Assembly: GCA_030747675.1 (NCBI GenBank)
Contig: JASLKH010000052.1
Location: forward strand, 1-13,200
From: Candidatus Thalassarchaeaceae archaeon
GTDB taxonomy: Archaea > Thermoplasmatota > Poseidoniia > Poseidoniales > Thalassarchaeaceae
Direction: 5' to 3'
Length of the DNA: 13,200 bases
Part shown: piece by piece, positions 2 through 13,190 of the stretch
Layout: each line of letters opens with the position of its first letter
Numbering within the stretch: position 1 is the stretch's first letter
The notes under the pieces: model-generated
Databases searched by the model: none
The model's input: only the letters and a program-made list of their open reading frames with translations
Told to the model about the DNA's origin: nothing
Translations under genes and position numbers: made by a program

Positions 2-2038
2 TTGGTCTGGAACACAGAACCTTGGTGGACTTGGACAAGCTCAGATATCGACCGCAATGGTATTCATGACAGCCTTCAATCAGAAATGGAATCTGTTTGG
101 ATAGGGTTGTCATATAATCAAACTCCTACTCGTGAAGATGAATTCCGACTTGAAAGTTTAGGTTTTGATGTAAAATTGATTCTTCCATCGGTTGATGCAA
201 TATTGATTGGAGAGGTAAATGCTAGTGATATTTGGCAACTCGCTGAAATTGAAAATGTCGTGATGGTTGAAAGGTACGGTTTATTGGAGTTTTATGGAGA
301 TGTCCAAACACTTGCAGTCAAGGCCCGAAATTCAACTGAGTATCCAGAGAGTGCTTGGCAATTAGGAGTATCAGGACAAGGTGTCAATATTGCTTTGACA
401 GACACTGGCGTGGACAGTGAACATCCTGGTTTAGAAGGTAAGCATGTTGCTGGTTATGATGCAGTTTGTTTCTTGCATACGGACTTACATTCGTGTGTTT
501 TGGCTGGAGGTCGACAAAGTGACGGTTCATTTGATCCAGATGATGGTAACCAACATGGTACTGCCTGTATGGGAATGGCATCCGCAACAGGTGTTGAAGC
601 AGATGGAAGCCAATCTGAATATTATGGAAGTGCTCCCAATGCATCACTTGTCGATGTGAGAATTGGGACGGATGTCGGTGCAGGTCCGTTTGAAAATTAT
701 TTACTCGAGCAAGAATTCTATGAGTCTGCGATGAATGGTCTGCAATGGATTATTGACAACAAGGATACTGCGTGGGCAGGTACTGACGAGTCCCTTTATG
801 GAATTGATATTATTTCTCTTTCTTGGGGAATTACTAGCCATGAGGATGGTGGTTCAGATGGCACAGATATGCATAGCCGAATTTTGGATGAAGCAACAGA
901 GGCTGGAGTGACAGTATCGAATGCTGCGGGTAATGACGGAGAAAATAACGATGGCCTTTCAGGAATGAGTGCCTCATCACTTTCTATCACCGTTGGCGCA
1001 ACTGACGACAAGAATTCCGTTGACAGAGGAGACGATACTGTTGCAGGTTATTCCTCACGTGGTCCACGTCGTGATAATGGAGACGGCAATCCAGTCAACG
1101 AATTGATACCGGAGATTTCGGCACCAGGGACCAATATTATTCAGGCAGAAGGTTGTGTGACTAGTGGTGGATGCAACAACAATATCCCTGGTCAAGATGC
1201 AAGTGACAATACCTACACCGGGCGCGGATCGGGTACATCATATGCCACCCCTTCAGTTTCTGGAGTTATCGCACTAGTTATCGAAGCAAACCCTGATTTG
1301 AATCCAATGCAGATCAAAGAAGTTCTCAAGCAAACTGCAGAACGTCGGGGACCTGCATCGGCCCCGACAATCGACCCCTATTGGAATCGAGATTTTGGAT
1401 ATGGAATGGTCGATGCTAGGGCAGCTGTTGAATTGGCATTGCATCTAAAAGAGACCAATCAGAGTACGTCAATTGATTGGACAATCCAAAATCATATTCT
1501 TAATGTCTCAAATGAAGGGAAAAATGTCATCATCAAGGGACATGCATGGACACAATCAGATGTCATAGAGAGGGTGGAATTCAGGGTAGGGAATGGTGCT
1601 TGGTCAGAGTCGACTTATGAAATGGCAATTGGTGAACTTGGACCATTGACACCTTTCAACTGGACTATTGCTCTTGATACTTCAAAACTGGATGTGGGAA
1701 TCCAAACCATCGAAGTTAGGGCATCTAGGGGCGCCGTTCATTCAGTCCCAACAACTGTCACAGTAGAAGGTACAGGTAGCGCACAATCGTCATCAATGGG
1801 TTGGGTTGTTATAGGGGGCGGAAGTCTATTTGTTATTGCTTTGATTTCAATTATGATGGTTCTTGTGATGAAGCGAACTTCTGAGTCAATGACCGATCCT
1901 GAAATCTATGAGGCTGAAATTCTGGATGATGACTCCTACGACGAAATGACAGTTAAACAACTGAAGGACGAATTATCGTCAAAAGGTCTTTCTGTTTCGG
2001 GTAAAAAGTCTGATTTAATCTCTAGACTTCGTTCTTAA
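2..2038 (+). CDS. S8 (subtilisin-family) serine peptidase, 5'-partial, with Ig-like domain, C-terminal transmembrane helix and terminal SAP domain
   Basis: Catalytic triad in subtilase order: TDTGVD (Asp 401-403), NQHGTAC (His 554-556), GSGTSYATP (Ser 1238-1240). Oxyanion motif AAGNDG, plus SSRGP and PEISAPG. Hydrophobic helix at 1796-1870 and SAP-like YDEMTVKQLKDELSSKGLSVSGKKSDLISRL from 1937. The frame is open at the window edge, so the true start and signal peptide lie upstream. Confidence 0.95.
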   Translation: MVWNTEPWWTWTSSDIDRNGIHDSLQSEMESVWIGLSYNQTPTREDEFRLESLGFDVKLILPSVDAILIGEVNASDIWQLAEIENVVMVERYGLLEFYGDVQTLAVKARNSTEYPESAWQLGVSGQGVNIALTDTGVDSEHPGLEGKHVAGYDAVCFLHTDLHSCVLAGGRQSDGSFDPDDGNQHGTACMGMASATGVEADGSQSEYYGSAPNASLVDVRIGTDVGAGPFENYLLEQEFYESAMNGLQWIIDNKDTAWAGTDESLYGIDIISLSWGITSHEDGGSDGTDMHSRILDEATEAGVTVSNAAGNDGENNDGLSGMSASSLSITVGATDDKNSVDRGDDTVAGYSSRGPRRDNGDGNPVNELIPEISAPGTNIIQAEGCVTSGGCNNNIPGQDASDNTYTGRGSGTSYATPSVSGVIALVIEANPDLNPMQIKEVLKQTAERRGPASAPTIDPYWNRDFGYGMVDARAAVELALHLKETNQSTSIDWTIQNHILNVSNEGKNVIIKGHAWTQSDVIERVEFRVGNGAWSESTYEMAIGELGPLTPFNWTIALDTSKLDVGIQTIEVRASRGAVHSVPTTVTVEGTGSAQSSSMGWVVIGGGSLFVIALISIMMVLVMKRTSESMTDPEIYEAEILDDDSYDEMTVKQLKDELSSKGLSVSGKKSDLISRLRS

Positions 2039-3252: not shown

Positions 3253-3834
3253 ATGTCCATTGAAGGCCAAATTGCAGGAATTGTGTTTGGTTTAATTTTT
3301 GGAATGATAATTCCTCGATTACCATTGCTCTTTTTCACTCGTTTTCTAAATCTTGAACGTGGATTAAGCCCTCATCCTGATCCCATCCCAGTCGATGTTC
3401 CACTTGTTCAAAGAATGCTGTTAATACGACGTATTCACATGATGGGTTGGGTTCTCGCCGCATTCCCATTACTTCTTTCAATTGCCATAATGCGAACATC
3501 ACCTGAACCATTTGCACTTGGGATGTTTGCGGGAGTTATTTGGTTCATTTTGTCAAGATTAATCCCAGTTAATATCCAATCTGGAGTTGGCATCATGCCG
3601 ATGAAATTAGTACGCCAAGTGAATAACTTGAGGCAACCAGACCCTCCTTGTTGCAATAGGCCCAGGCCTCAATGGGAAGTTCGTAAGGTTCGGTGCCGAT
3701 ATTGTAGAACGGTTATTTTGAACAAACCTCGCCCAGATATGGGGCGAATACGATCTGATGGGCGCTTACTTGGCTTATTTCGAATTTTGTTAATGGATGG
3801 CCGCTCTCTTTACAGGTCCGAAGAAGAGGAATGA
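3253..3834 (+). CDS. Hypothetical membrane protein, about 3 TM helices, with Arg-rich C-terminal region carrying CC...CxxC
   Basis: Good SD. Hydrophobic segments IAGIVFGLIFGMII, MMGWVLAAFPLLLSIAIM and FALGMFAGVIWFILS. Cys at 3649-3654 (CC) and 3694-3705 (CRYC). No family recognised. Confidence 0.8.
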   Translation: MSIEGQIAGIVFGLIFGMIIPRLPLLFFTRFLNLERGLSPHPDPIPVDVPLVQRMLLIRRIHMMGWVLAAFPLLLSIAIMRTSPEPFALGMFAGVIWFILSRLIPVNIQSGVGIMPMKLVRQVNNLRQPDPPCCNRPRPQWEVRKVRCRYCRTVILNKPRPDMGRIRSDGRLLGLFRILLMDGRSLYRSEEEE

Positions 3835-4937
3835 TTATCATTATCTAGAGAATCTAGTTGTTGTGCCAATTGTACAATTTTTTCTTCAAATGGTGTAGGT
3901 TCTTCTTTGGTATTTTCTTCTAATCCAATTTCATCCTCAGTGAGGTGAGCATCACTTCCTTTTGCCTCACCAACACCTTCTCCAGGTGCAGGTAACGCGC
4001 CTACACTTTCTTCTTCATCTTCCCCCCCTGTCCAATTGGCATTTGTTCCAATCATCCATCGGGGTATATCTTGTTCCCCTCCTCCCAAAACTGCCATTGT
4101 TGTAAAAATGGCCATTGGCAATAGAGAAAGAGCAACTAACAAGTCGAGGAATGAAGACTCAGGAATTTCAATCGACACAGGTATGATTGCTTCCAGTATT
4201 CTTTGTTCATCATACACTTGTTGCCACCGACCCACATCAAGGTCCAGTGCATCAAATGCAACCATCACTATGAATCGTTCAACCATCCATAGGAGTAGTA
4301 CGGGGAACAACCAGCCCAATTTTGTTCGATCAACTAATATCCGTCTTGCCACTGCAGCCGCGCCTACACTTTTTTCTGCAATTTTTGGGAAAAATCGTAA
4401 TCCAATTACTAAACCTGCAAGATATACTAGCAATGATAATTCTAATAATCGATTATCTTGCAACCAATGAGATGGAACAAAGCGAAGCACAAGCAGTGGT
4501 AACATGATTAGAACTAGTTGAACGGGGGCTGCTAATAGTTGCAAACCACCGTGAACTTCTAGTAATGGCCGCCCTCGATCCTTGACTTCACGATGTACAA
4601 TTCTAGTGACTTTTCCGTAGGGTGAAGATATCAATTGCAAACGAGCTCGATCGACCATGTCTGCATCTCGAAGACGTCGGCTAAATCCTAGTACTGGCAT
4701 CCATCCTCCAGCATCAGCAACTCTAGTTGGCATATAACCGCCAACAACCAGTGCAAGAGTTAATGATACCATGCCATAGAAAATTGCAGCACTGATAATC
4801 CATGGGAATAATTCAACGCGAAGTTGAATTGTATAGGTGCTCCAATCCACATCAACAATGTATGTCAATGTAAATGCTATAACCGGGGCAATGAAGACTT
4901 GTGTGGCAATAATTAGCGTCAGCCAAATTCTGGCCAT
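3810..4937 (-). CDS. Hypothetical polytopic membrane protein with acidic C-terminal tail
   Basis: Long ORF with about 6 hydrophobic segments and an E/D-rich tail. ATG 4937 is preferred over TTG 4961 because AGAGGT lies just upstream of it. The 3' end overlaps the convergent CDS by 25 nt. No family recognised. Confidence 0.8.
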   Translation of the reverse strand: MARIWLTLIIATQVFIAPVIAFTLTYIVDVDWSTYTIQLRVELFPWIISAAIFYGMVSLTLALVVGGYMPTRVADAGGWMPVLGFSRRLRDADMVDRARLQLISSPYGKVTRIVHREVKDRGRPLLEVHGGLQLLAAPVQLVLIMLPLLVLRFVPSHWLQDNRLLELSLLVYLAGLVIGLRFFPKIAEKSVGAAAVARRILVDRTKLGWLFPVLLLWMVERFIVMVAFDALDLDVGRWQQVYDEQRILEAIIPVSIEIPESSFLDLLVALSLLPMAIFTTMAVLGGGEQDIPRWMIGTNANWTGGEDEEESVGALPAPGEGVGEAKGSDAHLTEDEIGLEENTKEEPTPFEEKIVQLAQQLDSLDNDNHSSSSDL

Positions 4938-5057
4938 CAATGTACCTCTGATGGTGGACAACGAAACCTCTGGCGTCAGTTCTGACCTATAGCCTGTCGG
5001 CCGGATTATGATTGTTTGAGTCTATTTCTAGATTGAAATTTCAAGGCCGAAGTGATT

Positions 5058-5095: not shown

Positions 5096-5124
5096 GCTTG
5101 ATACTGGACAGGTTGTTGATTGTC

Positions 5125-8100
5125 ATGAAAGATGCTCGAATGCTCTTCGTACTTGGAATTCTAATTGCTGCTACTTTGACACCATTTGTTGCAAATGATG
5201 ATTCTCTAGATCCTAGTTCGAACTCAGAATATACTGAAGGCCGCGCTCAAGTTGACATGACAATTTTGGATATTACTGCAGGCAATGTATCAACGCCAGC
5301 CGAGGTGTGGACACAATCGTCAGGAACAACTCAAGATTATCTGATTCGAAACACTCTCTATGAAGTCACAATCACTTTCAAGAATGCTGGAACTGGATTT
5401 TCTTCGGTCGATTCTACTGGAACGTTGGAAATTATTCACCCAATTGGATTTGTAATGCAGATGTGGGAATTCAACATGTCCGGGCAATATGCAATGGCTG
5501 GTGGTCAGACAAGAACAGAGGTTGTTGAATGGACTCCTACTGCTTCCCACAGTTACGTTGACGAAATTGGAGATTTGGCAGGAGGCTTAATATTCCGTGG
5601 AAGCATTGAAACTGGGGCACTTGAATTGCAACCACAACGAGGAAATAACGAGTATCAAGAATCCTTCCCCGTTGCAGTTTGGCATGACAATTTGGAACCC
5701 ACACAACCCCTTTCATTCCCTGGTTACGGCAATCCACTTTTCGTGCCTGTTGCTTACGAAACTCGTTATCCAACCCCTACTCTATATCCTGGTGGTACTG
5801 ATTGGCAACCAGATAATTCTAGTGCAGCTGCAGGAAATCGGCATTGGAGAATGTCAAACTCTGGTGGTGATTACCCCTCTAACAACGTTGAGATGCTACG
5901 ATGGGGCTGGTTTACTAATTCGCAAGGTGACTGTGCTGACTCAGGTCACGGTTTAGGGTATGGTCAGTATGACTCTGATATCACTGCTTATTATTCTCAG
6001 CATTTCTGCACCGCCAACATTGGAGAGTATGATTACAAATCTCTTCATTGGGTGACAAATGCATATGGTTCAATGGCTCAAGGCGACGAGTTGGCTATGG
6101 AAGCTTTGCGTAGTTTCTTTCCAAGCGATATCCAACAACTCAATTTAACAGAACAATCACTTTCAACCACTGCAGGAGATTGGACTCAAGTTGTTTGGAA
6201 TATGACTGATGTCCACGATGAGCAAGCATTCATGATATCTTATTCGAAAATTGCAGATGAACAATTTGCCAATGAAGGAATCCACATAGATGATTTTGTA
6301 TTATTGGGTATCGATCGAGTCGAAGAATTCACAGTTACTCTTGAGTGTGATGATCCACTTCCTAACGCCTATGTTGTTATCCCAGCGGATCCTAATCCTC
6401 CATCGTTATATTGTGAATTGACGAATAATGGATATCGTGAGAAAACGATGACAATTAATACCGAGGTCAGCAATCAGACTTGGATGGCTAATTATCCACT
6501 TCGTATTGATAGTAACAATGTTGTTGACCATGATAATGTGGTGACTCTCTCACCTCTCGATGGTGAAACTACGACATATTTCTGGATCAATCTTACTATT
6601 CCCGAAGGTGCAAATGTAGAGACTTTGAATTGGACAGTTGAAATTAGTAACAACAATTTCGGGTCCACCGAAGAGAAAGCCTCCATGCTTATCCCAGTCA
6701 GTGTTGATTCGTCTTATTCAGTTAGAATTCAGCAAGTAGAATCAACCGGCCAAAATGTTGCTTTGACTCTTGAACCAGGTCAAACAGGTGACATTGAGAT
6801 GCGTATCAAGAATACAGGGAACAAATATGCAGATTGGAATTTAGGGGCCTACTTTGACAGTACACTGTGGTGTGACAATTGTCCAAATGACAACCTTGCG
6901 TGGTTGGAAGATTGGGATGGAGATGGCAACATGACTGAAATTACACAACTTGGACTATCTAAGAGTGAGGAGCGTTATGTAACAGCCCGATTTACGAGTC
7001 CATTACAAATGCCTCCCGGATTAGTTGAAGTTTCATTACTCGCTAGTGGAGTTCCTCCAGCAAGCGCTCAATCGATTAAGCAAGTAATCATTGAAGTTCC
7101 AGTCATCCAAGATGTCTCTGTAGAAGCTCAGCAGTCTTCATTGATGGCATCTGCTAATGGATTTACTCGGACAATGCCTATTACTATTACAAATAATGGA
7201 AATGCACCTGAATACTTTGATGTGTTAATCAATGCAGACATACGCCTTCAAGCCTACTTGAATACTGAAATTACTGAAGAGATCGACCCCTTTGGCGGTC
7301 AAACAACAGTAATGGTCATCTTGCCAATGAATCCAGGGTTGCCTGACGAAATGTCGCCCTACCAAGTGACAGTAACTGCGCGTTCGAAAACGGATAGTTC
7401 CCACAGTTCATCGGGTTCATTTGACCTCTCTGTTCCAGTAACATATCTCACCGAGGTTCAGGATTATGGCCAATTAACCGAGCAGACTTTCACACCAGGT
7501 GAGAATGCCAAAACATTGAGGTTTGAAATTTTCAACCATGGTAATGATCCCGACGCATTCACAATCGATATGGCACTTGACTCAGGCGTTATAGCGTCAA
7601 TATCGAGTGGAGTTTCAGATGGCCGTACTCCTTACATCGACCCAGGTACATCAACGAATATCACAATTTCTTATTCATTTTCAGATGGTACATCTGGCCT
7701 GCGAACAATGACAATTACATCTACAAGTGTTTCAGCAGCCTCCGCAGGTGAAACCATTACTGCTTCGGGAGAAGCAATCTTTGACGTTGGTGAAAAGGGA
7801 TGGTTATTACTTGAGCCTAGTCAGCCGATTGAAATCGATGAGCCCGGCACATATTCGATGTCTGTTCGCATTTTGAATCGACACCCTGACCGTAATCAAG
7901 AAATTGATCTTCAGGTGATTACAGATGGAACAGAACGTTGGGATTATGTTGACAAAATACGACCGGGTGCACTTGACGTTGCCGGATTCTCACTTGATCC
8001 AGGGGTAGAACGAATCATCACCATTGAAATCCGATTGACGGAAACGAATTTGGAAAACCTACCACAAGATAGCATGGATTACAATTTCACAGTGCGAGTT

Positions 8101-8610
8101 GCAGCAACAGATGACACATCAGATATTGTACTTAGTTTTACAACCAACCAATTTTCAGAATCTTCAAATTCAGATTCAGAGAGCTCAGATGACTTGTTGA
8201 AGAGTATTGCAATTTGGACATTGGGCGGTCTAGTGATTATTGCACTTCTAGCAGTATTGGTCAAAATCATAATTTCCACAGAGCACGAAGATGAGATTTC
8301 GACTTTATCAGGTTATGAATCCAATCTCGAGTTGCCAGATGCTCCCTCATTGCCTGAAGCACCGACTTTACCTAGTGCGGATTTGACTGCTAATTCGATG
8401 TATGGCGGCACTCAGGAATTATTTGAGCAACCAGTGATGACTACACCACCTGCTCCAGAATCAACGGTTGCTTCAGATCCAGCACCAGTTCCAGAACCAG
8501 CACCTGCAGCCGGCCCTCCGTTGCCTGAATCGGGCTTGCCAGAGGGGTGGTCTATGGAGCAATGGACACACTATGGTGAGGAATATTTACGCCGGCAAAA
8601 TGAGTCGTAA
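5125..8610 (+). CDS. Large type I membrane-anchored cell-surface glycoprotein: jelly-roll/MAM-like region plus tandem CARDB/COG1470-like Ig repeats
   Basis: Signal-peptide-like N-terminus MKDARMLFVLGILIAATLTPFVA (ATG 5125 preferred over TTG 5098). Recurring Ig-repeat motif: ITFKNAG, LTNNGY, IKNTGN, ITNNGNAPE, IFNHGNDPD, ILNRHPD. GIHIDDF resembles the GWYIDD strand of MAM/jelly-roll domains. At least 11 N-x-S/T sequons. TM helix about 8203-8274, then a Pro-rich tail. Domain names are recognised by eye only. Confidence 0.85.
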   Translation: MKDARMLFVLGILIAATLTPFVANDDSLDPSSNSEYTEGRAQVDMTILDITAGNVSTPAEVWTQSSGTTQDYLIRNTLYEVTITFKNAGTGFSSVDSTGTLEIIHPIGFVMQMWEFNMSGQYAMAGGQTRTEVVEWTPTASHSYVDEIGDLAGGLIFRGSIETGALELQPQRGNNEYQESFPVAVWHDNLEPTQPLSFPGYGNPLFVPVAYETRYPTPTLYPGGTDWQPDNSSAAAGNRHWRMSNSGGDYPSNNVEMLRWGWFTNSQGDCADSGHGLGYGQYDSDITAYYSQHFCTANIGEYDYKSLHWVTNAYGSMAQGDELAMEALRSFFPSDIQQLNLTEQSLSTTAGDWTQVVWNMTDVHDEQAFMISYSKIADEQFANEGIHIDDFVLLGIDRVEEFTVTLECDDPLPNAYVVIPADPNPPSLYCELTNNGYREKTMTINTEVSNQTWMANYPLRIDSNNVVDHDNVVTLSPLDGETTTYFWINLTIPEGANVETLNWTVEISNNNFGSTEEKASMLIPVSVDSSYSVRIQQVESTGQNVALTLEPGQTGDIEMRIKNTGNKYADWNLGAYFDSTLWCDNCPNDNLAWLEDWDGDGNMTEITQLGLSKSEERYVTARFTSPLQMPPGLVEVSLLASGVPPASAQSIKQVIIEVPVIQDVSVEAQQSSLMASANGFTRTMPITITNNGNAPEYFDVLINADIRLQAYLNTEITEEIDPFGGQTTVMVILPMNPGLPDEMSPYQVTVTARSKTDSSHSSSGSFDLSVPVTYLTEVQDYGQLTEQTFTPGENAKTLRFEIFNHGNDPDAFTIDMALDSGVIASISSGVSDGRTPYIDPGTSTNITISYSFSDGTSGLRTMTITSTSVSAASAGETITASGEAIFDVGEKGWLLLEPSQPIEIDEPGTYSMSVRILNRHPDRNQEIDLQVITDGTERWDYVDKIRPGALDVAGFSLDPGVERIITIEIRLTETNLENLPQDSMDYNFTVRVAATDDTSDIVLSFTTNQFSESSNSDSESSDDLLKSIAIWTLGGLVIIALLAVLVKIIISTEHEDEISTLSGYESNLELPDAPSLPEAPTLPSADLTANSMYGGTQELFEQPVMTTPPAPESTVASDPAPVPEPAPAAGPPLPESGLPEGWSMEQWTHYGEEYLRRQNES

Positions 8611-10318: not shown

Positions 10319-10395
10319 GGGAGAGGGATAGTGCCGCAAAGGCTCGCCCTTGACCCGCTATGTTCAATAATCGAAATCCAGTCGATAGCCTCGTT

Positions 10396-10422: not shown

Positions 10423-12330
10423 ATGTCAGCGGTTACAAAAGTCTGGATCGATGAGGGCTGTATCACTTGCGATGCATGCGAAAACATCGTTCCAGAAGTT
10501 TTCCAAGTGGAAGATGAGACTTGTGTAATTGTTGATGGTGTAAATCCCAGTGAATGGGGCGATGACATCATTGAAGCTGCTGAAGGCTGTCCAGTTGACG
10601 TAATCATGTATGAGGTCGCTGGGGCTGATGAAGAACCGGCAGAAGAATCTCCGGCAGAAGTAATCGAAGAAGCCGTTGCTGTGGCCGAGGAAGTATCTAC
10701 AGCAAGTGCAGGGGCTGGTGTATTAGCTGAATTGATGAGCGGTGACCGAGATGTCCACATATTCTTTGGTAGCCAATCCGGTAATGCAGAATCTCTTTCT
10801 GCTAAATGGGCAAAGAAAGCCTCTGACTATGGGTTGGTTGGCCATGTTCATGACATGGACGGGTTTGATATTGCCACTATGAGCGGAATGAAAAGAGTCC
10901 TAATTGCTTGTTCTACTTGGGGTGAAGGTGATATGCCAGATAACGCTGAAGCGTTATACGCTGCAGCGAAAGGCGCAGGGAAGATACTTTCAAACACACA
11001 TTTTTCAGTCTGCGCATTAGGTGACTCTTCTTACGAGTTCTTTTGCGAATCAGGAAAAGAATGGGACCAGGTCATGGAGGAAATGGGCGCCTCCCGGATT
11101 CACGAAAGAGTTGATTGTGATGTAGACTACGATGCTCCTTCGGAGGCGTGGATGTCCATTGCAATGTCAAAGATAGCCTGCGTTGATGATAGTGGTACGT
11201 TCCAAGAAGATTTACTTGAGGCGATGATATCTCATGCTTCAGGCGACTCCTCAGCTGCTGTTGCAGGTGATGTAGCATCAGTGGCAGAGCCTGAAATTCA
11301 AGTCACAGCTACAATTTTCCGATACGATTCCATGACCGGTGAAACTGGGGCTGATGCATGGGCCTGTTCGCTACCAGGGCATTACAGTGTCCTCCAACTA
11401 TTACGGACACTGAAAAGTACTCAAGATGGTTCATTGACGTTCCGAGATGGTGCAAATAATGACCCTACTACTGGTGTTTGCGTCAATGGTCGTCTAGTTT
11501 TACCTGGTATGGTGCGACTATCCGATATTGCTAGGGACAAAGGAAACGGTGCCCAAATTCGAATTGAACCTCTTGCGGCTTTCGATGTGATTCGTGACCT
11601 TGCTGTAGACCTTTCTTCATATGACAAACTTCGAATGTCAACCAAGCCTTGGTTTGTAGGCGGAGAACGAGAGGGCTCCTATGCTTCGGGAGTCGTAATG
11701 GGTACAATGGATCCAGTTGTGGCTACAGAATTACATTCATCTACCAATTTTGAGAGCCACTACATTTTACACGCATCTAGTGATGCAGTTCCACACAACC
11801 AATCATACATTGGACCCGCCTTGGTTAACCATTTGTGGAACAGATCTTGCGACCCCCGAATATCCGACAAATCTAGAACCGCAATTATTGAATCTCTCTC
11901 TGATGTAAATGGTGTTAAGGCTGAAACAGACATGGCTAGTATCCGTCGTCAAGGAACCATGGGATTGGCAGTATCAAAATCAATTCTGCAAGCGAAAAAA
12001 GCAGCCTTAGCACATGACGGTTATAATGGCCGACACGGAAAACATGTCTGGTGGTATACTTGGTCCATAAAAAGTAGTGGAAAGGTGAATGAGACGACGC
12101 TCTATAGAACTGTTTTGGGCCCAATGGGTTTGGCGAGTAATGCACTTTCTGGTGTATCTGCTAGGATGATTTTTGGATTCACACGTACAGGGCGACCAAT
12201 GATCAATGAATTGTTAGCCCTAGTTGCCCCTCCTGCCGGCATTGGTAAAATGCCAAAGCAATTTAATTCAAAAGTTGAAAATCATCATGAGGTGGTTTCA
12301 ATTTTCAATGAAATGGATGGTCGATTCTAA
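10423..12330 (+). CDS. Fusion protein: [4Fe-4S] ferredoxin + acidic linker + flavodoxin + cysteine-less SdhB/FrdB-like domain with type-E-like C-terminal extension
   Basis: ATG 10423 follows SD GGGTGA. Ferredoxin: CITCDAC (10459-10479) and CPVD (10588). Flavodoxin about 10753-11178: FGSQSGNAE, STWGEGDMPDNA, LGDSSYEFFC, RVDCDVDY. SdhB scaffold from about 11299: IFRYD, SVLQLL, SLTFR, VNG, IEPL..F.VIRDLAVD, KPW, YIGPA. None of the cluster cysteines is present. Confidence 0.9.
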   Translation: MSAVTKVWIDEGCITCDACENIVPEVFQVEDETCVIVDGVNPSEWGDDIIEAAEGCPVDVIMYEVAGADEEPAEESPAEVIEEAVAVAEEVSTASAGAGVLAELMSGDRDVHIFFGSQSGNAESLSAKWAKKASDYGLVGHVHDMDGFDIATMSGMKRVLIACSTWGEGDMPDNAEALYAAAKGAGKILSNTHFSVCALGDSSYEFFCESGKEWDQVMEEMGASRIHERVDCDVDYDAPSEAWMSIAMSKIACVDDSGTFQEDLLEAMISHASGDSSAAVAGDVASVAEPEIQVTATIFRYDSMTGETGADAWACSLPGHYSVLQLLRTLKSTQDGSLTFRDGANNDPTTGVCVNGRLVLPGMVRLSDIARDKGNGAQIRIEPLAAFDVIRDLAVDLSSYDKLRMSTKPWFVGGEREGSYASGVVMGTMDPVVATELHSSTNFESHYILHASSDAVPHNQSYIGPALVNHLWNRSCDPRISDKSRTAIIESLSDVNGVKAETDMASIRRQGTMGLAVSKSILQAKKAALAHDGYNGRHGKHVWWYTWSIKSSGKVNETTLYRTVLGPMGLASNALSGVSARMIFGFTRTGRPMINELLALVAPPAGIGKMPKQFNSKVENHHEVVSIFNEMDGRF

Positions 12331-13190
12331 TGGCAATGAAATATGCATATCACCCAGGTAATGTTGCTCATAGCAATGCGCTTGAAGTTGCAGATACAAT
12401 GCCTTTCGCTGCAGAATCACTTGGTATTGAATTAATTCCTCTTGATGCTGCTACAAGTTGCGGAGCAGGAATTCTAAGGCAGGCGAATGAAGAACTCCAA
12501 ATCACTCTCAATGCCCGAACATTGGCGATTGCAGAATCAATGGGCCTTGATATTATCACATCTTGTGCAACAACAGCAGGAACATTACATGAAGATTTGA
12601 ATAATCTTAGAAATGATAAGCAATTATTATCCAAAGTGAATGATATTCTTCAGCGACATTGTGGTCTTACTCTAAAATGTGAAATAAATGTCCACCATTT
12701 GTTGCATGTAATTGTTGATGAAATAGGGTTGGAAAAACTTGCAGATGCGGTCAAGAATCCATTTGGATTCAAAATTGCAGGATACTATGGCCCCAATATT
12801 CAGCAAGATGGTGCATGTGGTGGCGATGACATATTTGATCCAGATTACCTTGAGCAAGTCATCAGTGTTTTGGGAGGGGAACCTGTACAATGGTCAAGCA
12901 AAACCCAGAGTGTGGGTGTTCCAGGGTTGTTTAGTGAAGATAAGACTGTCATGAAACAAACCGCAAGCGTACTTTCGGATGCCAAATCAGAAGGGGCGCA
13001 ACTAGTTGTCAGCGCTTGCAATCTTTCCCATATGTTGCTTGATGTGTATCAAGGAAAAGCTGGAAAGGTTTCAGGAAAGAAGACGAAGGTCCCCGTGATT
13101 CACCTCACTGAGTTCCTAGCATTCGCATTCGGGCATTATATTGATCGATGTGCGCAACTTAGGACAAGAGTACTGGTAATTGGCGATTAA
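12330..13190 (+). CDS. HdrB/SdhE-like CCG-domain protein with degenerate cysteine motifs
   Basis: TAATG overlap with the upstream stop (alternative ATG at 12336). Scaffold MKYAYHPG, LGIEL, NARTLAIAE.MGLDIIT, KIAGYYG, LGGEPV, AKSEGA..VV.AC and PVIHLTEFLAFAFG matches the HdrB family. CCG ligands are mostly substituted. Confidence 0.9.
   Translation: MAMKYAYHPGNVAHSNALEVADTMPFAAESLGIELIPLDAATSCGAGILRQANEELQITLNARTLAIAESMGLDIITSCATTAGTLHEDLNNLRNDKQLLSKVNDILQRHCGLTLKCEINVHHLLHVIVDEIGLEKLADAVKNPFGFKIAGYYGPNIQQDGACGGDDIFDPDYLEQVISVLGGEPVQWSSKTQSVGVPGLFSEDKTVMKQTASVLSDAKSEGAQLVVSACNLSHMLLDVYQGKAGKVSGKKTKVPVIHLTEFLAFAFGHYIDRCAQLRTRVLVIGD

What the first reader, a model, noticed from the sequence alone, without database searches (positions are those of the whole stretch)
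10423..13190. Candidate new system: cluster-stripped SdhB/SdhE(HdrB) pair carrying ferredoxin and flavodoxin
Seen: two coupled genes (TAATG overlap) with intact frames, both losing their Fe-S ligands while keeping fold-defining residues, and both new redox domains retaining their cofactor motifs. Known: SdhB plus a CCG-domain subunit is the arrangement of type-E succinate:quinone reductases (e.g. Sulfolobales SdhE), which attach to membranes via amphipathic helices. Inference: a duplicated type-E SDH subcomplex lost about five clusters and became a structural, probably membrane-associated platform presenting Fd/Fld to a partner such as SdhA or another oxidoreductase. Alternatives are a pseudoenzyme regulator or an iron-sparing redesign. 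No sdhA lies upstream; downstream is outside the window. I know of no description of this system, but could not search.
Basis: partly seen in the sequence, partly recalled or inferred. Interest (0 to 1): 0.88.

Follow-up and report, generated by a model that had tools for sequence, protein, structure and literature searches.

The report
Cluster-stripped SdhB/SdhE pair with tethered carriers
Marine Group II archaea, among the commonest archaea of the surface ocean, all keep a two-gene remnant of an archaeal-type succinate dehydrogenase that has lost its iron-sulfur wiring, carries ferredoxin/flavodoxin domains on flexible tethers, and probably pairs with a similarly stripped SdhA-like flavoprotein encoded elsewhere; its function is untested.

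Summary
Window 10423-12330 encodes ferredoxin + flavodoxin + an SdhB-like module with none of its Fe-S cysteine ligands. Window 12330-13190 overlaps it by one base (TAATG) and encodes an HdrB/SdhE-fold protein that keeps 3 of 10 ligand cysteines.

It is not decay. The pair was found in 150 of 151 Poseidoniales genomes searched and nowhere else in the phylum sample. dN/dS is 0.04-0.10.

- The cluster loss came in stages. The SdhB-like clusters and the C-terminal CCG cluster are gone in every lineage sampled. The N-terminal CCG cysteines survive in some genera and were lost at least twice.
- The carrier domains swap: Fd-Fld, Fld-Fld, Fd-Fd or Fd alone. Two proteins 94% identical downstream differ in the outermost domain.
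- An unlinked, order-wide third SdhA paralogue (A') has lost the catalytic and covalent-FAD residues and has a shortened capping domain. It co-folds with the SdhB-like module (0.94 against 0.00 for the controls), though this is a textbook pair.

Best reading: a scaffold derived from a type-E-like complex II that carries tethered low-potential electron carriers. Its function is unknown. I found no paper describing it. This scan has reported the same operon on other MGII genomes at least eight times; none of those notes turned up in a word search for an SdhA-like partner.

The parts
10423..12330 (+). Gene 1 (B'): Fd - linker - Fld - linker - SdhB-like module, 635 aa, stop included. An in-frame ATG at 10360 is unlikely to be the start.
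   Evidence: ORF and translation. A 635-aa identical database entry, and homologues starting at the equivalent Met. Pfam and NCBIfam hits.
10447..10605 (+). Single-cluster ferredoxin domain (Fer4_13). Its four Cys ligands are at codons 10459, 10468, 10477 and 10588, and the last is followed by Pro.
   Evidence: Pfam 39.2 bits against a cut-off of 24.5. The Cys and Pro are invariant in 15 homologues. It is the only Fer4_13 hit in the genome.
10597..10716 (+). Acidic Ala/Glu/Pro-rich linker 1 (residues 59-98 of the 635-aa protein).
   Evidence: pLDDT below 50 in the AlphaFold2 model. Sequence and length vary between homologues.
10759..11130 (+). Flavodoxin domain of the CysJ/MioC type, with its FMN loops kept.
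   Evidence: Pfam 95.3 bits. TIGR01931 cysJ FMN region at 6.1e-36. pLDDT 80-92. It is the only Flavodoxin_1 hit in the genome.
11245..11286 (+). Linker 2 (residues 275-288), joining the flavodoxin to the SdhB-like module.
   Evidence: pLDDT below 50. The first residues of the module (8-15 of P0001:295-656) lie in the predicted interface with A'.
11284..12327 (+). SdhB-like module. It has no cysteine at any [2Fe-2S], [4Fe-4S] or [3Fe/4Fe-4S] ligand position, and it ends in a conserved type-E-like C-terminal extension.
   Evidence: 38 invariant columns across 13 lineages. dN/dS 0.095. Found in 150 of 151 Poseidoniales genomes.
12330..13190 (+). Gene 2 (E'): a 286-aa HdrB/SdhE-fold protein, stop included. 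Cys remains at 3 of 10 CCG ligand positions: C44 (12459), C79 (12564) and C230 (13017). C79 and C230 are invariant in the family.
   Evidence: Model pLDDT 88.5, with TM 0.87-0.89 to HdrB chains 5odc_B and 8rvy_B. dN/dS 0.044.

Best explanation
Shown. The two genes are the B and E subunits of a paralogue of a type-E-like (SdhA-SdhB-SdhE) complex II, found here only in Poseidoniales. The paralogue has been turned from an iron-sulfur enzyme into a core free of clusters: in this genome all five clusters are gone. The core is strongly conserved. It carries one or two small low-potential carriers at its N-terminus (here a [4Fe-4S]-type ferredoxin and an FMN flavodoxin), joined by linkers that the model predicts to be disordered.

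Inferred.
- The core assembles with A', an unlinked order-wide SdhA-like protein that keeps its FAD-binding motifs. A' is G000:C10:15089-16681, protein P0245. It has lost the covalent-FAD histidine and the dicarboxylate-binding and catalytic residues, and its capping domain is shortened.
- The A'B'E' body then works as a docking scaffold rather than as an electron wire.
- The tethered carriers do the redox work, relaying electrons between a ferredoxin- or flavodoxin-dependent donor (for example the genome's 2-oxoacid:ferredoxin oxidoreductase) and an acceptor held at the scaffold. That acceptor could be the FAD of A', the N-terminal CCG cluster of E' where it survives, or a membrane quinone.
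- The stepwise loss of clusters and the Fd-to-Fld swaps reflect selection to save iron in surface-ocean lineages.
For: Architecture and loss of ligands.

Distribution. The SdhB-like module is in 150 of 151 Poseidoniales genomes (58 of 58 high-quality ones). It was found in 0 of 7 genomes of the sister order. Elsewhere in the phylum sample only ordinary SdhB proteins matched, at E 4e-13 or weaker. Among 1.84 billion representatives only 130 proteins matched. The nearest cysteine-bearing SdhB inspected scored 2.6e-10, and the four better-scoring non-full-length hits inspected (P0256, P0262, P0263, P0264; E 9e-70 to 6e-26) had no cluster motifs.

Purifying selection: dN/dS is 0.066 for A', 0.101 for B' and 0.044 for E'.

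Type-E ancestry. sdhA-sdhB-sdhE operons occur in other Thermoplasmatota, and one of their SdhE proteins is 35% identical to E'. The C-terminal extension of SdhB is shared.

Tethers: the linkers have pLDDT below 50, while the flavodoxin domain is modelled confidently.

Interchangeable carriers. The forms seen are Fd-Fld, Fld-Fld, Fd-Fd and Fd alone. P0010 and P0045 are 94% identical over their last 520 residues but differ in the outermost domain.

Stepwise loss. The N-terminal CCG cysteines are kept in f2, in f3 genera g19 and g22, and in f1 genera g2, g3, g8 and g10. They are lost, with different replacement residues, in f1 genera g1, g4-g7 and g9 and in f3 genera g15, g17 and g18.

A' as the partner.
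- It is in 46 of 47 sampled Poseidoniales genomes and in family f2, and not in the sister order.
- It is a third paralogue beside SdhA and a true NadB.
- By BLAST it is closer to the SdhA of type-E operons (1e-43 to 1e-51) than to its own genome's SdhA (1e-30) or to NadB (1e-20).
- Its catalytic residues are lost across the family, and its capping span is 81-94 aa against 109-143 aa.
- The genome holds exactly two SdhB-type proteins for two SdhA-type proteins.
- Co-fold of the B' module with A': score 0.94 in three runs, best of 3 controls 0.00. That mark was reached by 58 of 80 solved complexes and by 2 of 110 mismatched pairs (counts only rough here, because my own alignments were used). The runs agree in at least 95% of contacts, and the partner's pLDDT is at least 92.

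An OFOR is present in the genome.
Against: - SdhA-SdhB complexes are solved many times over. The co-fold pass may therefore only reflect likeness to them; it does not show that this copy binds.
- I could not run the specificity controls: canonical SdhA with B', and A' with canonical SdhB.
- A' is never adjacent to B'E' in the genomes where both places were compared.
- One genome that is 94% complete has B' but no detectable A'.
- Residues of the predicted interface are no more conserved than the rest of either protein.
- The tree places A' as sister to SdhA plus type-E SdhA, not inside the type-E group.
- The shared distribution of A', B' and E' amounts to a single evolutionary event.
- With no clusters in B' there is no evident electron path from the FAD of A' through the core.
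- No donor or acceptor has been identified. The genome also has a free 7Fe-type ferredoxin, so the tethered carriers are not its only ferredoxin.
- Cofactor binding, membrane association and expression were not tested here.
Confidence: 0.45

Rival explanations
1. B'E' works without A'. It is a stand-alone hub, possibly attached to the membrane by one face (monotopic), whose only job is to hold ferredoxin and flavodoxin near some other enzyme or the membrane. A' would be an unrelated, fast-evolving flavoprotein.
For: - A' is never linked to B'E' in the genomes compared.
- A' evolves much faster: 31-59% identity to P0245 across the order, against 49-64% for E'.
- Its interface residues show no extra conservation.
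- G035 has B' but no detectable A'.
- A' has its own conserved neighbour, an unknown four-TM protein X.
Against: - B' keeps the whole SdhA-facing N-terminal domain under purifying selection.
- The co-fold scored 0.94 against 0.00 for the best control (with the textbook-pair caveat).
- A' would otherwise be an SdhA-type protein with no SdhB-type partner.
- Both show parallel order-wide distribution and parallel loss of function-defining residues.
Confidence: 0.22
2. E' is still a catalyst. The two invariant cysteines C79 and C230 sit at equivalent positions of the two CCG half-sites. Together with the invariant H234 they would form a thiol/disulfide or metal site, reduced by the tethered FMN. 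This would be an HdrB-like disulfide (or quinone) reductase that no longer needs non-cubane clusters.
For: - C79, C230, S233 and H234 are invariant in 13 lineages, while the other ligand positions changed.
- E' is the most constrained of the three proteins: dN/dS 0.044 and 66% mean column identity.
- The HdrB fold is intact, with TM 0.87-0.89.
- The N-terminal cluster motif survives in many lineages.
Against: - No coordinates were available, so I could not measure the distance between C79 and C230.
- No substrate is known.
- The lineages with and without the N-terminal cluster would need different chemistry for the same role.
Confidence: 0.13
3. B'E' is an alternative, low-iron set of subunits for the canonical SdhA, used in place of SdhB/SdhC when iron is scarce.
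For: - The Fd-to-Fld swaps and the stepwise cluster loss point to iron economy.
- B' keeps the SdhA-facing domain.
Against: - With no clusters in B', electrons from the FAD of SdhA have no path.
- The canonical sdhB is kept next to sdhA in the own genome, and canonical SdhA is present in every relative checked for it.
- A dedicated stripped paralogue, A', exists.
Confidence: 0.08
4. The genes are decaying relics or annotation artefacts.
For: The loss of every cluster ligand would normally inactivate an SdhB.
Against: - The frames are intact in 150 of 151 genomes.
- dN/dS is 0.04-0.10.
- The replacement residues are themselves conserved.
- Synteny and translational coupling are conserved.
Confidence: 0.01

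Closest known systems
Type-E ('non-classical') succinate:quinone oxidoreductase SdhB + SdhE (Sulfolobus/Acidianus SdhABEF; MFR SdhABE of Campylobacter/Wolinella). SdhE is defined by two CXnCCGXmCXXC motifs and is thought to be a monotopic membrane anchor (PMC2754724; PMC2680327).
   Same: - The gene order B then E.
- The SdhB fold with the type-E C-terminal extension.
- The HdrB/SdhE fold.
- The nearest cysteine-bearing relatives among the loci fetched sit in sdhA-sdhB-sdhE operons of other Thermoplasmatota.
   Different: - No sdhA in the operon.
- No Fe-S ligands in B'.
- Only 3 of 10 CCG cysteines here.
- Ferredoxin and flavodoxin domains fused to the N-terminus.
- The candidate A subunit lacks catalytic residues.
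Heterodisulfide reductase HdrB (PDB 5odc_B, 8rvy_B) and thiol:fumarate reductase TfrB (an SdhB-HdrB fusion).
   Same: - E' matches HdrB best by sequence (1.4e-33) and by fold (TM 0.87-0.89).
- The pairing of an SdhB-like part with an HdrB-like part mirrors TfrB.
- One genome even has B' and E' in a single 997-aa frame.
   Different: - The non-cubane cluster ligands that form HdrB's active site are missing: the C-terminal set in all lineages, the N-terminal set here.
- No HdrA/HdrC or TfrA-type catalytic partner.
Tethered FMN domains of diflavin reductases (CysJ, cytochrome P450 reductase) and ferredoxin/flavodoxin substitution under iron limitation.
   Same: - The flavodoxin domain is of the CysJ/MioC type.
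- It hangs on linkers predicted to be flexible.
- Fd and Fld replace one another at the same position in near-identical proteins.
   Different: - No FNR-like FAD/NADPH domain.
- The body to which the carrier is tethered is a stripped complex II fragment.

Membership tests
SdhB/FrdB iron-sulfur subunit (type E) | [2Fe-2S] ligands CxxxxCxxC...C in the N-terminal domain | tested here: not met
   The four positions read A, D, T and G in the window. They are non-cysteine in all 13 lineages aligned.
SdhB/FrdB iron-sulfur subunit (type E) | Two CxxCxxCxxxCP-type motifs for the [4Fe-4S] and [3Fe/4Fe-4S] clusters | tested here: not met
   Every ligand position is replaced (S, I, A, A and E, M, I, G in the window). 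The replacements are conserved across the family.
SdhB/FrdB iron-sulfur subunit (type E) | Homology to the SdhB fold, including the type-E C-terminal extension | tested here: met
   Fer2_3 scores 36.7 bits against a cut-off of 27. PRK12576 matches at 2.8e-15 over residues 309-587. The extension aligns with cysteine-bearing type-E-like SdhB proteins.
SdhB/FrdB iron-sulfur subunit (type E) | Encoded together with sdhA | tested here: not met
   The flanking genes are a thermosome upstream and a Hef-type helicase downstream.
SdhE/HdrB (CCG-domain proteins) | Two CXnCCGXmCXXC motifs (PMC2754724) | tested here: not met
   In the window, 2 of 5 N-terminal and 1 of 5 C-terminal cysteines remain. The N-terminal motif is intact in 7 of 13 lineages; the C-terminal motif is lost in all.
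SdhE/HdrB (CCG-domain proteins) | HdrB-like fold | tested here: met
   The model has pLDDT 88.5. TM-score is 0.87-0.89 to 5odc_B and 8rvy_B, at 27-28% identity.
SdhE/HdrB (CCG-domain proteins) | Monotopic membrane attachment | not testable with these tools
   No transmembrane helix is evident, and attachment through an amphipathic helix cannot be judged from sequence here.
Flavodoxin (CysJ/MioC type) | FMN-binding loops and the flavodoxin fold | tested here: met
   Pfam scores 95.3 bits. The GSQSGNAE and STWGEG loops are invariant in 15 homologues. pLDDT is 80-92. Actual FMN binding was not tested.
Single-cluster ferredoxin (Fer4_13) | CxxCxxC...CP ligand set | tested here: met
   C13, C16, C19 and C56-P57 are invariant. 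The type of cluster was not tested.
SdhA/FrdA flavoprotein (for the candidate partner A', P0245) | N-terminal FAD Rossmann motif and C-terminal GxxAAGD motif | tested here: met
   GxGxAxxxAA is kept. A343, A344 and G345 are invariant in 19 sequences.
SdhA/FrdA flavoprotein (for the candidate partner A', P0245) | Covalent-FAD His plus the catalytic and substrate residues (E. coli FrdA H44, E245/R248, R287, H355, R390) | tested here: not met
   H44, E245/R248 (the TEGxRGEGG motif), R287 and R390 are replaced in all 19 members. H355 is replaced in nearly all: a few sequences carry a His within a residue of that column. The replacements differ between lineages. The HPT histidine is kept only in part of the family.

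The most novel reading that the evidence does not exclude
Poseidoniales run a three-protein descendant of complex II: a stripped SdhA-like protein with FAD binding, a cluster-free SdhB-like protein with tethered Fd/Fld, and a cluster-poor SdhE-like protein. The whole iron-sulfur wire has been replaced by flavins on flexible arms. In the most derived surface-ocean lineages (Fld-Fld forms with a cluster-free E') the complex holds no iron at all. This would be a new kind of flavin-only electron-transfer hub, and a documented case of an enzyme complex being stripped of iron step by step under ocean iron scarcity.
Probability: 0.25. Interest if true: 0.88.

Novelty: new variant of a known kind. Interest (0 to 1): 0.74.

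Why it matters
Marine Group II archaea are among the most abundant and most transcriptionally active archaea of the surface ocean, and none has been cultured. This module is core to the order and strongly conserved. Public sources label it sulfite reductase flavoprotein, succinate dehydrogenase cytochrome b subunit or heterodisulfide reductase, so metabolic reconstructions probably count it wrongly.

It also offers a natural series for study: the N-terminal CCG cluster kept or lost, and Fd or Fld as the carrier. That series shows how an iron-sulfur complex can lose its clusters and still be kept by selection. The proposed trio of A', B' and E' turns the question of what the module does into a concrete co-expression experiment.

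Tried and rejected
- A' as L-aspartate oxidase: rejected. Relatives, including one of the same genus, have a true NadB above the TIGR00551 cut-off in addition to A' and SdhA. A' also lacks the shared catalytic residues. The own MAG simply lacks nadB.
- The tethered carriers as the cell's only ferredoxin: rejected. A free 7Fe-type ferredoxin lies on C72:7528-7857. The flavodoxin and Fer4_13 domains of B' are, however, the only ones of their families found.
- A third SdhB-type protein as partner for A': rejected. The Fer2_3 hit on C74 is a CoxS/xanthine-dehydrogenase-type 2Fe-2S protein.
- Conservation of the predicted A'-B' interface: inconclusive. 130 of 529 circular shifts for A', and 232 of 361 for B', reach the observed value.
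- Tree of the SdhA superfamily: A' is monophyletic, but its origin inside the type-E group is not resolved.
- Fusions longer than 1113 aa that might name a partner: none found, which is weak evidence.
- Protein X upstream of A': no family in Pfam, and only Thermoplasmatota hypothetical proteins in the Atlas.
- Literature: four full-text searches found no description. Two candidate papers do not mention the module.
- dS is saturated between this genome and its nearest sampled relative, so dN/dS was taken from the pair G002/G017.
Full report
**What is in the window.** The window is the whole of contig C52 of a 1.68-Mb, 78%-complete genome. Source names of the nearest homologues place it in Marine Group II, that is Poseidoniales and Thalassarchaeaceae. 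Upstream of the finding lie a subtilase, an aminotransferase, three proteins without a Pfam family, and a thermosome.

Gene 1 runs to 12330. Its start is most likely 10423: the identical database entry is 635 aa, and homologues begin at the equivalent Met. Gene 2 starts on the last base of gene 1's TAA, giving TAATG, and ends at 13190, ten bases before the contig end.

**Checking the observation.**

- **Domains of gene 1.** Gene 1 holds Fer4_13, Flavodoxin_1 and Fer2_3 domains, all above Pfam's cut-offs. Its best SdhB model is the type-E-like PRK12576, and its flavodoxin resembles the FMN part of CysJ.
- **Cofactor motifs of the carriers.** The ferredoxin keeps CxxCxxC...CP. The flavodoxin keeps the GSQSGNAE and STWGEG loops. 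These are invariant in 15 homologues.
- **SdhB-like module.** I aligned it with cysteine-bearing SdhB proteins from other Thermoplasmatota and with the genome's own SdhB. It has no cysteine at any ligand position of the three clusters. The same holds for twelve other lineages spanning all three families of the order.
- **Gene 2.** It matches HdrB and the MFR SdhE subunit and solved HdrB chains at 1.4e-33. Its AlphaFold2 model (pLDDT 88.5) superposes on HdrB with TM 0.87-0.89. Of HdrB's ten cluster cysteines only C44, C79 and C230 remain.

**It is a conserved system, not decay.**

- The SdhB-like module was found in 150 of 151 Poseidoniales genomes, in 58 of 58 high-quality ones and in 22 of 22 genera. 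The one genome without it is 85% complete and in 300 contigs.
- In a phylum-wide sample it is confined to the order. It was found in 0 of 7 genomes of the sister order, and outside the order only ordinary SdhB proteins appear, at E 4e-13 or weaker.
- An exhaustive HMMER scan of 1.84 billion representatives found only 130 proteins. Of the hits I inspected, the members and fragments of the family had no cluster motifs. The nearest cysteine-bearing SdhB inspected scored 2.6e-10.
- Gene order is kept in both large families: thermosome, gene 1, gene 2, a convergent Hef-type helicase, then the ribosomal protein operon. No sdhA lies beside the pair.
- For a pair of genomes with unsaturated dS, dN/dS is 0.101 for gene 1 (0.095 for the SdhB-like part) and 0.044 for gene 2.
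- The residues that replaced the cysteines are themselves conserved.

**Origin.** Other Thermoplasmatota carry sdhA-sdhB-sdhE operons. One of their SdhE proteins is 35% identical to gene 2's product. Their SdhB proteins share the C-terminal extension of the SdhB-like module. This is the type-E arrangement, in which SdhE is defined by two CXnCCGXmCXXC motifs (PMC2754724). The genome also has an ordinary SDH locus: an unannotated 305-aa membrane protein, then SdhA, then a fully cysteine-bearing SdhB.

**Cluster loss was stepwise.** The five cysteines of the N-terminal CCG motif of gene 2 are all present in these lineages:

- family f2;
- f3 genera g19 and g22;
- f1 genera g2, g3, g8 and g10.

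They are lost in f1 genera g1 (this genome), g4-g7 and g9, where the five positions read N, S, C, C, T. They are also lost in f3 genera g15, g17 and g18, where they read N, S, D, C, S. Different replacement residues in different families mean at least two independent losses.

The C-terminal CCG ligands and all SdhB ligands are gone in every lineage sampled, so those losses date to the ancestor of the order. C79 and C230 sit at equivalent positions of the two half-sites. Together with S233 and H234 they are invariant.

**The carriers are cassettes.** Most members are Fd-Fld. Some f1 genera have Fld-Fld. One f2 genome has Fd-Fd, and one representative has a single Fd. P0010 (Fld-Fld) and P0045 (Fd-Fld) are 94% identical over their last 520 residues yet differ in the outermost domain.

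In the model of the full protein the flavodoxin is confident (pLDDT 80-92). Residues 59-98 and 275-288 fall below 50, which fits flexible tethers. One genome encodes Fld-Fld, the SdhB-like module and the SdhE-like protein in a single 997-aa frame. If that is real rather than an assembly error, it supports physical association of the two products.

**A candidate missing flavoprotein.**

- **Location and family.** The genome has a second SdhA-type protein, P0245 (A'), on contig C10. It scores far below every NCBIfam cut-off for SdhA, FrdA, TfrA and NadB.
- **Lost residues.** Aligned to E. coli FrdA and to 29 relatives, the family keeps the FAD-binding motifs. It lacks the covalent-FAD histidine, the E/R of TEGxRGEGG, the proton-shuttle arginine, and the substrate histidine and arginine. 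The replacements vary between lineages.
- **Capping domain.** The stretch between the HPT and AHY motifs is 81-94 residues in A'. It is 109-121 in type-E SdhA, 120-130 in NadB and 143 in the order's own SdhA.
- **Distribution.** A' is present in 46 of 47 sampled Poseidoniales genomes and in family f2, and not in the sister order.
- **Not NadB.** Relatives have a true NadB as well.
- **Selection.** dN/dS is 0.066.
- **Nearest relatives.** By BLAST it is closest to the SdhA proteins of the type-E operons. In the tree, however, it is a long monophyletic branch, sister to SdhA plus type-E SdhA, so its origin is unresolved.
- **Counting partners.** The genome holds two SdhB-type proteins for two SdhA-type proteins.
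- **Co-fold.** A co-fold of the SdhB-like module with A' gave a score of 0.94 in three runs, with the best of 3 controls at 0.00. That mark was reached by 58 of 80 solved complexes and by 2 of 110 mismatched pairs (counts only rough here, because my own alignments were used). The runs agree in at least 95% of contacts, and the partner's pLDDT is at least 92.

SdhA-SdhB complexes have been solved many times. The pass may therefore reflect likeness to them rather than binding by this copy.

Evidence against the pairing:

- The two loci are never adjacent in the genomes where both were compared.
- The predicted interface is not more conserved than the rest of either protein.
- One 94%-complete genome lacks a detectable A'.

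A' always follows a conserved protein of unknown family with four predicted transmembrane helices, here called X.

**Mechanism.** What is shown:

- the architecture;
- its conservation across the order;
- the loss of ligands;
- linkers that the model predicts to be disordered;
- the interchangeable carriers.

What is inferred: the core (B'E', probably with A') no longer conducts electrons. It serves as a docking body, and the tethered Fd/Fld relay electrons between a ferredoxin- or flavodoxin-dependent donor and an acceptor at the scaffold. The genome has one 2-oxoacid:ferredoxin oxidoreductase that could be such a donor. The staged loss of clusters and the swaps of Fld for Fd would reflect iron economy.

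Three rivals remain: a hub without A', residual thiol-based catalysis in E', and a low-iron substitute for SdhB/SdhC. Decay is excluded.

**Novelty.** Four full-text searches found no description of this module. Public sources name the proteins sulfite reductase flavoprotein, SDH cytochrome b subunit or HdrB. This scan has reported the same operon at least eight times on other MGII genomes. A word search of those notes for an SdhA-like partner returned nothing.

I rate it a new variant of a known kind. The parts are recognisable type-E complex II subunits, but the cluster-free state, the fused carriers and the stripped flavoprotein are undescribed, and the function is open.

Noticed in passing
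G000:C10:13350-15002 (L021:2350-4002, protein P0376): A 550-aa protein with about four predicted TM helices and a soluble C-terminal part. It has no Pfam family. It lies immediately upstream of A' in both large families of the order, and it evolves fast (25-32% identity). It could be a membrane partner of A'.
   Followed up: partly
L089:1841-4831 (G019:C27): A single 997-aa frame encodes Fld-Fld, the SdhB-like module and the SdhE-like protein. The last ~26 residues of the SdhB-like tail, conserved elsewhere, are missing at the junction. This is either a natural fusion or an assembly error.
   Followed up: partly
G000:C35:36888-37805 (L020:6888-7805, minus strand; protein P0242): The canonical sdhA-sdhB locus is preceded by a 305-aa polytopic membrane protein with no Pfam or NCBIfam match. 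It is probably the cytochrome b anchor, of an unmodelled type.
   Followed up: no
window 2-2038 (+): A subtilase (Peptidase_S8) carries a C-terminal SAP domain, an unusual pairing for an archaeal protease. In a relative (L019) the SAP domain falls in a separately called gene.
   Followed up: no
window 5098-8610 (+): A 1170-aa protein with no Pfam hit. Language-model neighbours are CARDB/COG1470-like predicted surface or membrane proteins. It is syntenic in relatives, at 1071-1126 aa.
   Followed up: partly
window 3253-3834 (+) and 3810-4961 (-): Two ORFs (193 aa and 383 aa) with no Pfam family. ORFs of similar size hold the same positions in relatives.
   Followed up: no
G000 whole genome: nadA is present (C35:7303-8199), but neither nadB nor an aspartate dehydrogenase was found. 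Relatives have nadB, so this is probably a gap in the 78%-complete MAG.
   Followed up: yes
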